Below, piece after piece: positions 27,500 to 30,494 of a DNA stretch of 38,797 nt. How positions within the stretch are numbered: the stretch's first letter is position 1; the number at the start of each line of letters is the position of its first letter. The translations under genes and the position numbers were made by a program. The notes below the pieces were generated by a model. That model was not told the DNA's origin, did not search any database, and was given only the letters and a program-made list of their open reading frames with translations. Source of the DNA: Candidatus Micrarchaeota archaeon (GTDB taxonomy: Archaea > Micrarchaeota > Micrarchaeia > Micrarchaeales > CABMGC01); contig JAJYXO010000005.1 in NCBI GenBank assembly GCA_021801765.1, forward strand, positions 1 to 38,797. Direction: 5' to 3'.

Positions 27500-28546
27500 T
27501 CAGCAGATTGAACTATTCGCATAGCAGACCGATGATATCGCTGTCTGCGGTATCGAAAGATACTTACAATCTGTTATGACTGATGGGGTAGACGTCACAT
27601 TGTAATAGCTGGCCAGCACCGCTTGCCTGTTTATTGGCGTACCTGCCGAAGAAATACAGCTATCCATCGCGCTCATATTCAAGCCAGAAGCTACAGCCAG
27701 CGCATCAAGCTCTGAAGGTGACATGTACGCATTTACATATGTGCTGTTCACCTCTTTGACGAATGCATTGAAACCGCTTTGATGCGAAGCGCAATAAAGA
27801 TACTTGCCAAAGGCGAGTGTTCCATTAAGGCCATTGTTGTTTGCGATCTCCCCTGATGACTGGGTGTAAAGTATTTCCAGGGATGCATTCACCTTTCCTT
27901 TAAACCTGCTTTCTATTCCTATCAGTTTCTGTAGGCTGCTAATCGATCCAGGCGCGTACGGGTCTATAAACCAATAGATTGGCAAAATGCCATTTGATTC
28001 GCAAGAGACTTTGCCTCCGCCTACCAGTATCACACCTTCTGAAACAGCGTAATTGCTGGATAGTTTCACAGGTTTCACTGTTTCTATTGATGTTGCAGAT
28101 TCGTTTAAATTGCTATCATTTATCAGCATGGAGAAATCAACCGTGGAATTCGAATCGAAGCTGTCCTTAACAGGTACGCTGACGTACCAATTGCCAGTTT
28201 GCGGCATGAACGTGGCGTTCATCTTGCTGACCTCTGCAAGATAAGGCAGAAGAGACAGGGACGTATTCAGGTAGTTGTAACTTGCAAGAAGCCTTTCTGC
28301 GTATAGCTTTATATCTGTGGCATTGTGTACGGGTTTTGCGCACATTCCATTGTATGCATAAGTGCAATTTAATGTTGCATTCTGCTGCACTGCTATTCTT
28401 ATTGGTCCATTGTACGATATGGCTATCAGGAGAGCTACAAGTATAACTATCAACGCAAGCATCGCCACATGCGCATTGTCCAGGCCTCCAAATCTCCCAA
28501 GAGGCATCACCAATATCTTCGGTTCCTTACCTTTTCTTGCTTTCAT
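27500..28546 (-). CDS. Membrane-anchored extracellular protein with a C-terminal DsbA/thioredoxin-like domain lacking CxxC
   Basis: I place the start at MKARKGKEPK (28546), because the track's 18-aa extension is tRNA sequence. It has an N-terminal TM anchor and about 14 N-x-S/T sequons. The C-terminal half follows the DsbA-family pattern, with YAPGS where CPxC is expected. Confidence 0.55.
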   Translation of the reverse strand: MKARKGKEPKILVMPLGRFGGLDNAHVAMLALIVILVALLIAISYNGPIRIAVQQNATLNCTYAYNGMCAKPVHNATDIKLYAERLLASYNYLNTSLSLLPYLAEVSKMNATFMPQTGNWYVSVPVKDSFDSNSTVDFSMLINDSNLNESATSIETVKPVKLSSNYAVSEGVILVGGGKVSCESNGILPIYWFIDPYAPGSISSLQKLIGIESRFKGKVNASLEILYTQSSGEIANNNGLNGTLAFGKYLYCASHQSGFNAFVKEVNSTYVNAYMSPSELDALAVASGLNMSAMDSCISSAGTPINRQAVLASYYNVTSTPSVITDCKYLSIPQTAISSVCYANSSIC

Positions 28547-28557
28547 ACGATCATCTT

Positions 28558-28670
28558 CGGGTCCGGCGGGATTTTCATATCCTTTAACGGTACATACCAT
28601 TAAAAGGCTTTTGAACCCGCGGCCATTACCTTAGGACGGTATTGCTCTGTCCAAGCTGAGCTACGGACCC
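28558..28670 (-). tRNA. tRNA-Arg (anticodon CCU) with a 38-nt intron in the T-loop
   Basis: Hand fold: acceptor GGGTCCG/CGGACCC, D stem GCTC/GAGC, anticodon arm ATACC-GTCCTAA-GGTAA, variable loop TGGCC. The T stem GCGGG...CCCGC is interrupted: TTCAAA, then an insert containing an 11-bp hairpin, then AT. The mature length would be 75 nt. Confidence 0.8.
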
Positions 28671-28673
28671 CTG

Positions 28674-30494
28674 TCACATCCTTTCAGATGCTTCAATACC
28701 TAATAGATTGAGCATATTATTTATTATTTGCTTCGTAGCCATGACGATGGCAACCCTAGCATTTTTCGAATCTCCCCCTGTAATCACTGGCAATGTCTCG
28801 TAAAATCTGCTGAACGCCGAAGAGATCTCCAGCAGGTACTCTGCTATGACATTTGGTTTAAGTTCAATGCATGCTTTCTTCACTATTTCATCCGCATTGC
28901 CTATCAGTTTCAGGAGCTCAAAATCTGCTCCCCTGGTTATCTTGGAATAATCTATCTTCTCTAGTTCTACGCCTCCTGTTCGGTCCAATATCCCAGATGC
29001 TCTTGCATACATGTACATGCAGTAGGCACCGCTGCTTGCATTTAGGTCCAAGGCCCTCTCCCATTCAAATGTAACCTTCTTCAAAGGATCTATCCTTAGA
29101 AATTCGAATTTTATCGCTGCTATGGCAACTTTCTCAGCAGCACCTTCTACACCTGCCCTCTTCCCTGCTTTGCTGCTCTGCTCAACTAGCTTGTCCACTC
29201 GCTTGCGCGTTTCATAGAACAGATCATCCGCAGTATAGTTTACTTCTTCACCTAGCCATTCTCCTTTCCTTCCGCTAAGCGATCCCTCCTTCAATTCTAT
29301 CTCTCCGTACGCAAGGTGCATTATGCTCCCACTCTCAGCCCCTATAGCCATCAGCGCTTCGCCTAGCATATTCTGGTTCAGGCTCTGCGCTGAACCTATG
29401 ACATTTATTATTCTCTTGGCGCCTCCAAACTTCATATATTCCCCATTGTCAGATGACGCGTAGGCGATACTGCCATCCGGCTGGGTTATAAACTTCCTGT
29501 ACTTAAATTTCTCATTTATCAATCCTAACTTCCACATGTGAAATGCTATGTCTTTCGCTAAATACGTCGGAACTCCATTGCTTCTTACAAGTACTTTGCC
29601 CTCTCCAATATCCAGCACAACGCAGTCGCTATATTTTCCTTCCGAAGGTCGTTTCAGCATTCCATTTTTATCCAGCATTGCCATAGCTTTTTTGAAAAGT
29701 CCGCTTTTAAGTATGTCACTCTCGAACATCAGGACGTCATGCTGCACGCCGTAGAGGAATGCGGTCTGGTACTGCGCCATTACGCAGTCCTCTGCAATCT
29801 TCCTCACCTCCAGATTCTCCCTGCTTCCATTCTCCTCCATCTTCTTAAGTATTGCATTTACCTTCTCTTCGGCGTTTGAGTTTTCTATCTCCTTGCTTAT
29901 CTTCGCATATCTTTCCCCTAAAAAGAGATCATACTTCTCCTCCGGTGGTTTGCCGACATTGCCATAAAGCAAAACTGCCATCTGCAGTCCCATATCGTCT
30001 ATATAATCCTCCCTTTCAACGCTGTATGAGCAAAAGGAGAAGATTTTTGAGAGCGAGTCCCCCAGAAGCGCATTTCTGAGATGTCCAATAAGCCATGGCT
30101 TGTTTGGGTTTACGCTAGGATACTCTATTATAACCTTCTCCGATTTTCCGATTTCTGCGCTGCCATAAGAACTTCCCTTTCCAACTACCTCGGCTACGAC
30201 CTCTCTTCCATATATGGTCTCATCTATTGATGCGTTTATGTAGCCTCCAGAAGTTTCGATTCCAGATATGGGGCTTTTAGCCTTAATCTTTTCAGCTATC
30301 TTCGAAGCTACATCTGATGGCTTCATGCGCAGCCTGCCAGCAATGCGCAGTGCTATTGAGGAGCTTATATCTGCATGGCCTACTGCAGGGAATACCACAG
30401 AACGCTCGATATCTATCTCGTTTATTTCTATACCTGAAAAAGCCTCCTTAACGCCTTCAATAATAATCTTGCAGAATACCTCTCTGATTTTCAT
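28674..30494 (-). CDS. argS: Arginyl-tRNA synthetase
   Basis: Class I HIGH region PNKPWLIGHLRNALLGD, an Arg-tRNA synthetase N-domain, and a DALR-like anticodon-binding C-terminus ending in M. Confidence 0.95.
   Translation of the reverse strand: MKIREVFCKIIIEGVKEAFSGIEINEIDIERSVVFPAVGHADISSSIALRIAGRLRMKPSDVASKIAEKIKAKSPISGIETSGGYINASIDETIYGREVVAEVVGKGSSYGSAEIGKSEKVIIEYPSVNPNKPWLIGHLRNALLGDSLSKIFSFCSYSVEREDYIDDMGLQMAVLLYGNVGKPPEEKYDLFLGERYAKISKEIENSNAEEKVNAILKKMEENGSRENLEVRKIAEDCVMAQYQTAFLYGVQHDVLMFESDILKSGLFKKAMAMLDKNGMLKRPSEGKYSDCVVLDIGEGKVLVRSNGVPTYLAKDIAFHMWKLGLINEKFKYRKFITQPDGSIAYASSDNGEYMKFGGAKRIINVIGSAQSLNQNMLGEALMAIGAESGSIMHLAYGEIELKEGSLSGRKGEWLGEEVNYTADDLFYETRKRVDKLVEQSSKAGKRAGVEGAAEKVAIAAIKFEFLRIDPLKKVTFEWERALDLNASSGAYCMYMYARASGILDRTGGVELEKIDYSKITRGADFELLKLIGNADEIVKKACIELKPNVIAEYLLEISSAFSRFYETLPVITGGDSKNARVAIVMATKQIINNMLNLLGIEASERM

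What the first reader, a model, noticed from the sequence alone, without database searches (positions are those of the whole stretch)
28558..28670. tRNA-Arg(CCU) interrupted by a 38-nt intron in the T-loop (non-canonical position)
The 5' part folds normally up to the T stem GCGGG, followed by TTCAAA. The matching CCCGC and the acceptor 3' strand CGGACCC appear only 38 extra nucleotides later. The insert contains a stable 11-bp hairpin (CCTTT-t-AATGGT / ACCGTT-AAAGG, loop ATGT). TTCA/TGAA pairing brings the exon ends together, but I cannot draw a strict 3-4-3 bulge-helix-bulge motif. The exact junction is ambiguous within the A-runs, somewhere between positions 56 and 60. Standard gene callers would miss this tRNA, and the ORF track translated its 3' exon as the first 18 aa of the neighbouring protein. 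T-loop introns are known only from a few archaeal lineages whose splicing endonucleases have relaxed specificity, so this is also a taxonomic clue.
Basis: partly seen in the sequence, partly recalled or inferred. Interest (0 to 1): 0.6.

Follow-up and report, generated by a model that had tools for sequence, protein, structure and literature searches.

The report
tRNA-Arg gene with T-loop intron
This is a real arginine tRNA gene interrupted by a 38-base intron in its T-loop, a kind of intron already described and shown to be cut in vitro in this group of ultrasmall acid-mine archaea (Micrarchaeota), so it is a correct but ordinary find.

Summary
On the minus strand, window 28670-28558 holds a tRNA-Arg(CCU) gene. 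Its T-loop carries 38 extra bases. Removing them gives a clean 75-nt cloverleaf with T-loop UUCAAAU. ARAGORN and Rfam at its gathering score both miss the unspliced gene.

- **Splice motif:** a bulge-helix-bulge (BHB) motif of the relaxed type can be drawn. It consists of the T stem, a 4-bp helix UUCA/UGAA and a strict 3-nt 3' bulge AAU. The 5' site lies in a 4x3 internal loop.
- **Junction:** it is 59/60. This follows from the motif geometry and from 14 orthologs in which only 59/60 restores UUCAAAU.

The genome is an 828-kb Micrarchaeota (ARMAN-like) MAG. It has one three-unit epsilon2 splicing endonuclease that aligns end to end with the solved ARMAN-2 enzyme (E 3.8e-149), with all catalytic and loop residues kept. 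It also has an RtcB ligase.

I found 99 distinct orthologous Arg(CCU) genes from Micrarchaeota with an intron of 11-40 nt at the same site. The motif is conserved while the rest of the intron varies. Five orthologs have no intron.

Introns at 59/60 and their cleavage by this enzyme type were published for ARMAN-2 in 2011, so this is a new member of a known kind. No RNA data were available, so splicing itself is inferred.

The parts
28610..28670 (-). 5' exon of tRNA-Arg(CCU), tRNA positions 1-59. The anticodon CCU is at 28635-28633. The T-stem 5' strand GCGGG is followed by UUCAAA.
   Evidence: Sequence read. The spliced form is called tRNA-Arg(cct) by ARAGORN. BLAST maps mature bases 1-61 to 28670-28610.
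28572..28609 (-). 38-nt intron at position 59/60: AG, the hairpin, AUA, UGAA, AA.
   Evidence: Deleting it restores T-loop UUCAAAU. Orthologs carry an intron of 11-40 nt at the same site.
28558..28571 (-). 3' exon: U60, T-stem 3' strand CCCGC, acceptor 3' strand CGGACCC, discriminator G73. No CCA is encoded.
28612..28615 (-). Central-helix strand H (UUCA, tRNA positions 54-57). A58 and A59 follow as the first two bases of the 5' bulge or loop.
   Evidence: Paired with UGAA in the minimum-free-energy fold.
28574..28577 (-). Central-helix strand H' (UGAA, intron bases -6 to -3). It is followed by the 3-nt bulge AAU (28573-28571), which holds the 3' splice site.
   Evidence: Across orthologs this tetramer is UGAA in 67 of 99 and pairs 4/4 with UUCA in 81 of 99, against a shuffle mean of 1.8.
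28581..28607 (-). Intron hairpin: 5 + 6 bp with one bulged U, loop AUGU. It is separated from the central helix by a 4x3 internal loop (AAAG / AUA).
   Evidence: In orthologs the inner helix differs in sequence but is kept.
28677..30494 (-). Context: the argS gene (arginyl-tRNA synthetase, 606 aa). Its stop codon ends 3 nt before the tRNA.
   Evidence: Pfam PF03485, PF00750 and PF05746. It lies upstream of the tRNA in 16 of 30 related loci.
27500..28546 (-). Context: conserved 348-aa gene with no Pfam match. Its real start is most likely the ATG at 28546, 11 nt after the tRNA, not the ATG at 28600 inside the intron.
   Evidence: tblastn alignments begin at residues 1-7 in 28 of 30 loci.

Best explanation
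This is a functional tRNA-Arg(CCU) gene of a Micrarchaeota (ARMAN-like) archaeon, and the only copy found in the assembly. It carries a 38-nt intron between tRNA positions 59 and 60.

Proposed mechanism:
1. In the precursor, the T stem (GCGGG/CCCGC) stacks on a 4-bp helix formed by T-loop bases U54-A57 and the intron bases UGAA.
2. The 3' splice site sits in a strict 3-nt bulge (AA|U). The 5' splice site (A58 A59|A) sits in a 4x3 internal loop next to the intron hairpin. This is a relaxed bulge-helix-bulge motif of the hBH/BHL kind.
3. The genome's single epsilon2-type three-unit splicing endonuclease cuts after the second base at each site. It releases a 61-nt 5' exon, the 38-nt intron and a 14-nt 3' exon.
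4. RtcB joins the exons, giving a 75-nt tRNA with T-loop UUCAAAU. CCA is added afterwards.

What is shown: the gene anatomy, the motif, its conservation in relatives, and the presence of the enzymes. What is inferred: cleavage, ligation and use of the tRNA.
For: - **Spliced product.** It is a clean tRNA-Arg(cct) cloverleaf.
- **Fold.** The minimum-free-energy fold of the precursor contains the cloverleaf arms plus the T stem, the UUCA/UGAA helix and the AAU bulge.
- **Orthologs.** Relatives in the same family and order carry the same tRNA. 5 of 30 loci have no intron and read GGGTTCAAATCCC. The others have an 11-40-nt insert at the same site.
- **Conservation of the motif.** Among 99 distinct intron-bearing orthologs, H pairs 4/4 in 81 (shuffle mean 1.8, maximum 7). 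An inner helix directly adjacent to H is present in 67 (shuffle mean 14, maximum 27). 50 are strict hBHBh'. The rest of the intron varies freely.
- **Junction.** In 14 orthologs only a 59/60 junction restores UUCAAAU.
- **Endonuclease.** One ORF of 384 aa has Pfam PF02778 twice and PF01974 twice, in the order N, N, C, C. It aligns end to end with PDB 4FZ2 (E 3.8e-149). Y160, K161, K228, Y236, H251, R275, K282 and W384 are all conserved (residue roles from PMC12397907). 60 of 61 genomes searched (G000 and 60 relatives) have one such gene.
- **Ligase.** RtcB is present at 536.7 bits.
- **Precedent.** The ARMAN-2 enzyme cleaves a relaxed 59/60 intron in vitro (PMC3239211).
- **No other copy.** No other tRNA-Arg(CCU) was found in the assembly.
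- **Same genome.** At least four other tRNA genes here carry T-loop inserts at the same site.
- **Independent DNA.** Metagenome contigs from three studies carry the identical intron-bearing gene.
Against: There is no RNA evidence, so neither the splice junction nor expression has been seen. This copy does not form the strict 3-4-3 motif: its 5' site lies in a 4x3 internal loop, and no enzyme has been tested on exactly this shape. The assembly is only 77% complete, so an uninterrupted second copy cannot be excluded. tRNA-Arg(UCU) is present on contig C6 and might read AGG by wobble, so this gene need not be essential.
Confidence: 0.9

Rival explanations
1. The gene is a dead tRNA. An insertion disrupted the T-loop, the RNA is not spliced, and AGG is read by tRNA-Arg(UCU) or by a copy missing from the assembly.
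For: This copy lacks a strict 5' bulge. The assembly is 77% complete. tRNA-Arg(UCU) exists on C6. No RNA data are available.
Against: All four arms are intact after the insert is removed. The insert lies at exactly the site used by 99 orthologs. The helix-forming UGAA and the AAU bulge are kept while the rest of the intron diverges, which is the pattern expected under selection for splicing. The enzyme type known to cut relaxed 59/60 motifs is present and has its key residues.
Confidence: 0.04
2. The intron is real but is removed at another T-loop junction (56/57, 57/58 or 58/59). In this copy those junctions give the same mature sequence.
For: The runs of A make four junctions indistinguishable by sequence in this copy. 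56/57 is also a published archaeal intron position (PMC4090602).
Against: Only 59/60 places both cuts after the second base of the bulges flanking the 4-bp helix, as seen in the ARMAN-2 enzyme-RNA structure (PMC12397907). In 14 orthologs only 59/60 restores UUCAAAU. The mature RNA would be identical either way.
Confidence: 0.05
3. The stretch is the coding 5' end of the downstream gene (ORF start at 28600), and the tRNA likeness is chance.
For: An ATG at 28600 opens the 366-aa frame.
Against: Homologs of the downstream protein align from the ATG at 28546 onward in 28 of 30 loci. The intron sequence that would encode the extension is not conserved. The exons are 87-92% identical across genera.
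Confidence: 0.01

Closest known systems
Pre-tRNA-Cys(GCA) of ARMAN-2 (Candidatus Micrarchaeum acidiphilum), which has a 13-nt intron at 59/60 (Fujishima et al. 2011, PMC3239211)
   Same: Same lineage, same intron position (59/60, T-loop), a relaxed hBH/BHL motif and the same type of endonuclease. That substrate was cleaved in vitro by the epsilon2 enzyme.
   Different: Different tRNA (Arg CCU rather than Cys GCA). The intron here is 38 nt and has its own 11-bp hairpin, so the 5' site lies in an internal loop, not a terminal loop. This particular substrate has not been tested.
Pre-tRNA-Pro(GGG) of ARMAN-2, which has two T-loop introns at 53/54 and 59/60 (PMC3239211)
   Same: A 59/60 intron in the same lineage. 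It has the strict hBHBh' form, like 50 of the 99 Arg(CCU) orthologs.
   Different: The window's gene has a single intron and a relaxed motif.
Non-canonical tRNA introns of Thermoproteales and other Crenarchaeota, cut by (alpha-beta)2 endonucleases (reviewed in PMC4090602)
   Same: Introns at 53/54, 56/57 and 59/60 and relaxed BHB motifs. The presence of an endonuclease with broad specificity goes together with many interrupted tRNA genes.
   Different: Different phylum and a different enzyme architecture: two subunits with a Crenarchaea-specific loop, against one three-unit chain with the ARMAN-specific loop.
ARMAN-2 epsilon2 splicing endonuclease, PDB 4FZ2 and 9W2K (PMC3488258, PMC12397907)
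   Same: The genome's enzyme aligns over residues 11-384 at E 3.8e-149. The order of units is the same, and Y160, K161, Y236, H251, K282, R275 and W384 are all kept.
   Different: It is an ortholog from another genus. Its dimer state and activity have not been tested.

Membership tests
Archaeal BHB-dependent tRNA intron at a non-canonical position (59/60) | Removing the insert restores a complete canonical cloverleaf | tested here: met
   ARAGORN calls the spliced 75-mer tRNA-Arg(cct) with T-loop UUCAAAU, the same as intron-less orthologs.
Archaeal BHB-dependent tRNA intron at a non-canonical position (59/60) | Strict hBHBh' motif: a 4-bp helix flanked by two 3-nt bulges on opposite strands, each closed by an outer helix | tested here: not met
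   The 3' half is strict (UGAA, then bulge AAU, then the T stem). The 5' site lies in a 4x3 internal loop, AAAG/AUA. 50 of 99 orthologs do meet the strict form.
Archaeal BHB-dependent tRNA intron at a non-canonical position (59/60) | Relaxed motif (hBH / BHL): outer helix, 4-bp central helix and one proper 3-nt bulge, with the other splice site in a loop at the symmetric distance | tested here: met
   The minimum-free-energy fold shows it. Cuts after the second base on each side give UUCAAA + U.
Archaeal BHB-dependent tRNA intron at a non-canonical position (59/60) | The motif is conserved in relatives while the intron sequence varies | tested here: met
   H pairs 4/4 in 81 of 99 orthologs, against a shuffle mean of 1.8. 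An adjacent inner helix is present in 67 of 99, against 14. Intron length ranges from 11 to 40 nt.
Archaeal BHB-dependent tRNA intron at a non-canonical position (59/60) | The host has an endonuclease type known to cut relaxed motifs, and an RNA ligase | tested here: met
   An epsilon2-type EndA and RtcB are present.
Archaeal BHB-dependent tRNA intron at a non-canonical position (59/60) | A spliced RNA is observed | not testable with these tools
   No RNA run holds this DNA.
epsilon2-type (three-unit) archaeal splicing endonuclease | A single chain with the units alphaN, alpha and betaC | tested here: met
   Pfam N-domains fall at about residues 11-64 and 133-187, and C-domains at about 202-286 and 291-361, in one 384-aa ORF. 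The chain aligns full-length to 4FZ2.
epsilon2-type (three-unit) archaeal splicing endonuclease | Catalytic Tyr/His/Lys and the ARMAN-specific loop Tyr-Lys | tested here: met
   The equivalents of Y236, H251, K282, Y160 and K161 are identical in the alignment. Their roles are taken from PMC12397907.
epsilon2-type (three-unit) archaeal splicing endonuclease | Homodimer that cleaves both strict and relaxed motifs | not tested
   This needs the protein and an assay. It was shown only for the ARMAN-2 ortholog (PMC3239211).
tRNA-Arg | An Arg anticodon in a 7-nt loop, and an A in the D-loop at the position of identity element A20 | tested here: met
   The anticodon loop is GUCCUAA and the D-loop is AGCUUGGACA; reading its A as position 20, and A20 as the identity element, rests on my own knowledge. 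ARAGORN assigns Arg(cct). Charging has not been tested.

The most novel reading that the evidence does not exclude
The 59/60 intron of tRNA-Arg(CCU) is an old, vertically inherited feature of the whole Micrarchaeales order. It is kept by selection rather than merely tolerated. Because the gene sits 3 nt behind argS in a conserved arrangement, splicing of the intron could couple maturation of the tRNA to expression or processing of the argS transcript. The natural series of 11-40-nt introns would then record how far the motif can erode before the epsilon2 enzyme fails.
Probability: 0.1. Interest if true: 0.5.

Novelty: new member of a known kind. Interest (0 to 1): 0.3.

Why it matters
Practical value: this gene is missed by ARAGORN and by Rfam at its gathering score. 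Without it the genome appears to lack tRNA-Arg(CCU), and the next gene gets a false 18-codon N-terminal extension. The same applies to at least four other tRNA genes in this assembly.

Biological value: it adds nothing new in kind. Introns at 59/60 in Micrarchaeota and their cleavage by the epsilon2 endonuclease were published in 2011.

The modest new point is comparative. One tRNA, Arg(CCU), carries an intron at this site in about a hundred Micrarchaeota genomes. Its length runs from 11 to 40 nt and the splice motif is conserved. This set could serve to study the substrate limits of the epsilon2 enzyme and the gain, decay and loss of introns.

Tried and rejected
- **RNA evidence.** No RNA holder was listed for this DNA, so the junction could not be checked in reads. 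Only DNA contigs could be laid.
- **Fujishima 2011 supplement.** The supplementary tRNA table is not held, so I could not check whether ARMAN-2's own Arg(CCU) intron is listed there.
- **Failed script.** My first ortholog script used the wrong offset to the anticodon and found nothing. It was corrected.
- **T-loop scan of the genome.** The scan returned several false candidates on C2, C3, C35 and at C42:19722. In these a normal tRNA lay inside the test sequence and did not use the splice, so I discarded them.
- **Leu(CAA) candidate.** For the candidate on C53 I could not draw a convincing 4-bp central helix at 59/60, so its junction remains open.
- **Strict 3-nt 5' bulge.** I looked for an alternative pairing in the window's copy that would give one. 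None exists, because the base after the bulge (G) faces an A.
- **Not attempted.** A motif-free scan of the whole genome for introns at all positions was not done. tRNAscan-SE in archaeal mode and SPLITS are not available here.
- **Literature.** A search for Micrarchaeota tRNA introns beyond the ARMAN-2 papers found nothing specific.

Full report
**1. What is in the sequence**

The feature lies on the minus strand. Reading from 28670 down to 28558, the parts are:
- acceptor strand GGGUCCG, then UA;
- D arm GCUC / GAGC with loop AGCUUGGACA;
- anticodon arm AUACC / GGUAA with loop GUCCUAA (anticodon CCU at 28635-28633);
- variable region UGGCC;
- T-stem strand GCGGG;
- 45 nt where 7 are expected;
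- CCCGC, CGGACCC and a discriminator G.

Deleting 38 nt that begin after the 3rd, 4th, 5th or 6th T-loop base gives one and the same 75-nt sequence. ARAGORN calls it tRNA-Arg(cct) with T-loop UUCAAAU.

The unspliced gene is missed by ARAGORN, with or without its anticodon-loop intron option, and by Rfam at the gathering score. Rfam in E-value mode gives only a 22.6-bit hit that skips the T arm.

The 27:43 position is A·A here and G·A in the orthologs and in this genome's tRNA-Arg(UCU). It is a trait of the lineage, not damage.

**2. The splice motif and the junction**

The minimum-free-energy fold of the precursor (-42.9 kcal/mol, z = -3.9) keeps all cloverleaf arms. It adds these elements:
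- The T stem stacks directly on a 4-bp helix between U54-A57 (UUCA) and the intron bases UGAA.
- A 3-nt bulge AAU lies between UGAA and CCCGC.
- A 4x3 internal loop (AAAG / AUA) follows.
- The intron hairpin closes the structure.

This has the geometry of a bulge-helix-bulge motif, with each bulge lying 3' of its strand of the central helix. In the ARMAN-2 enzyme-RNA structure the cut falls between the second and third bulge bases (PMC12397907). Applied here, the 3' cut is AA|U and the 5' cut is A58 A59|A. This gives exons of 61 nt (28670-28610) and 14 nt (28571-28558) and an intron of 38 nt (28609-28572). The position is 59/60.

**3. Relatives**

A search of 60 related genomes with the precursor found the 5' exon at 87-92% identity in nearly all of them, with the match ending at the T-loop. 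Of 30 loci read out, 5 have an uninterrupted gene with GGGTTCAAATCCC. The others have an insert of 11-40 nt at the same place.

A pattern scan of one genome per prokaryote species found 104 further stretches. Almost all come from MAGs labelled Micrarchaeota, Micrarchaeia or Micrarchaeaceae. They include the cultured Candidatus Micrarchaeum sp. A_DKE and strain ARM-1.

Among the 99 distinct intron-bearing genes:
- The four bases facing UUCA are UGAA in 67 and pair 4/4 in 81. Shuffled introns give a mean of 1.8 and at most 7.
- The 3' bulge is AAU in 78.
- An inner helix starts directly next to the central helix in 67, against a shuffle mean of 14.
- 50 are strict hBHBh'.

The inner helices differ in sequence from genus to genus but stay paired. 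Examples are UGCGC/GCGCA, UAAU/AUUA, UAAC/GUUA and UCGG/CCGG.

In 14 orthologs the sequence around the junction differs, so only a 59/60 junction restores UUCAAAU.

One caveat: the pattern scan required this site and an insert of 10-40 nt. It therefore says nothing about how often the intron is absent. The unbiased figure is 5 of 30 loci without an intron.

**4. The enzymes**

The genome is 828 kb in 62 contigs, 45.5% G+C and 77% complete. It has one endonuclease gene, on contig C45, of 384 aa. Two Pfam N-terminal domains and two catalytic-type domains occur in the order N, N, C, C.

The protein aligns from residue 11 to 384 with PDB 4FZ2, the ARMAN-2 enzyme, at E 3.8e-149. Conserved residues include:
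- the catalytic Y236, H251 and K282;
- the bulge-binding K228, R275 and W384;
- Y160 and K161 of the ARMAN-specific loop, which is needed for activity on both strict and relaxed substrates (roles from PMC12397907).

60 of the 61 genomes searched (G000 and 60 relatives) have one such gene. An RtcB ligase is present at 536.7 bits.

Fujishima et al. 2011 (PMC3239211) reported that 56% of ARMAN-2 tRNA genes are interrupted. They described 59/60 introns in tRNA-Cys(GCA) and tRNA-Pro(GGG), and showed that the enzyme cuts the relaxed 59/60 substrate in vitro. Position 59/60 is also listed among known archaeal intron sites in a review (PMC4090602).

**5. Is it the working copy?**

No other tRNA-Arg(CCU) was found by ARAGORN, by the Rfam tRNA model over the whole assembly, or by BLAST with the spliced sequence. 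The other Arg tRNAs present are UCG (C24), GCG (C40) and UCU (C6). ARAGORN misreads the UCU gene as 'Pyl(cta)' because of an intron at the anticodon loop.

A targeted scan found further T-loop inserts at the same site in this genome:
- Ala(GGC) at C29:23912-24014 (32 nt);
- two class-II tRNAs that each also have a second intron, at C27:12889-13015 and C42:4833-4971;
- probably Leu(CAA) at C53:5470-5567.

By my rough count, around 17-19 of about 42 recognisable tRNA genes are interrupted.

Contigs from metagenomes of three studies (mine drainage and sediment) span the whole stretch without a single difference or gap. The intron-bearing form is therefore the genomic form. No RNA run was available.

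**6. Context**

The gene directly upstream is argS, and its stop codon ends 3 nt before the tRNA. The next gene most likely starts 11 nt after the tRNA, at 28546. argS is upstream in 16 of 30 related loci, and the downstream gene is conserved in 28 of 30. The tRNA is therefore probably made from a longer transcript and cut out by RNase P and RNase Z. This last step is inference.

I confirmed the argS identity and the synteny, but not co-transcription.

**7. Verdict**

This is a real tRNA-Arg(CCU) gene with a 38-nt intron at 59/60 and a relaxed BHB motif, in a Micrarchaeota genome with the matching epsilon2 endonuclease.

The kind is known, from this very lineage, since 2011. The gene is a new member of that kind, and the comparative series of about a hundred orthologous introns is a small addition. 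Splicing itself remains inferred.

Scores: confidence 0.9, interest 0.3.

Noticed in passing
window 28677-30494 (-): The arginyl-tRNA synthetase gene ends 3 nt before the tRNA-Arg(CCU) gene. argS lies upstream of this tRNA in 16 of 30 related loci, so a synthetase and one of its own tRNAs sit in a conserved tight arrangement.
   Followed up: partly
window 27500-28600 (-): The longest ORF of the downstream gene starts at an ATG inside the tRNA intron. Homologs align from the ATG at 28546, so 18 codons are a false extension. The 348-aa protein has no Pfam match at E up to 0.001, although it is conserved next to the tRNA in 28 of 30 loci.
   Followed up: partly
G000 C29:23912-24014 (+); C27:12889-13015 (-); C42:4833-4971 (-); C53:5470-5567 (+): Four more tRNA genes in this genome have inserts in the T-loop at the 59/60 site: Ala(GGC) with 32 nt, two class-II Ser-type genes with 29 and 41 nt plus a second intron near the anticodon, and Leu(CAA) with 14 nt. 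For Leu(CAA) I could not draw a good central helix.
   Followed up: partly
G000 C6:2951-3038 (-): ARAGORN labels this gene tRNA-Pyl(cta) with an intron. Read by eye, it is tRNA-Arg(UCU) with a short intron at the anticodon loop, and its body is close to that of the Arg(CCU) gene.
   Followed up: partly
loci L040, L063, L078, L091, L100 (labelled Marsarchaeota) and L069 (labelled Methanothrix sp.): Contigs from MAGs with these labels carry the Micrarchaeota-type tRNA-Arg(CCU) with its 59/60 intron. The bins are probably mislabelled or contain misplaced contigs.
   Followed up: no
window 28640-28626 (-) and orthologs L006-L034: Position 27:43 of the anticodon stem is a purine·A mismatch in this gene, in all orthologs read and in the genome's tRNA-Arg(UCU). 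It is a conserved oddity of Arg tRNAs in this lineage.
   Followed up: no
window 28605-28689, metagenome runs X2, X5, X8: Summed contig depth rises 2- to 12-fold over the 5' exon only. Several contigs match the exon with 1-5 differences and then run on into unrelated sequence. This suggests that several related Micrarchaeota populations with different flanks share these samples.
   Followed up: no
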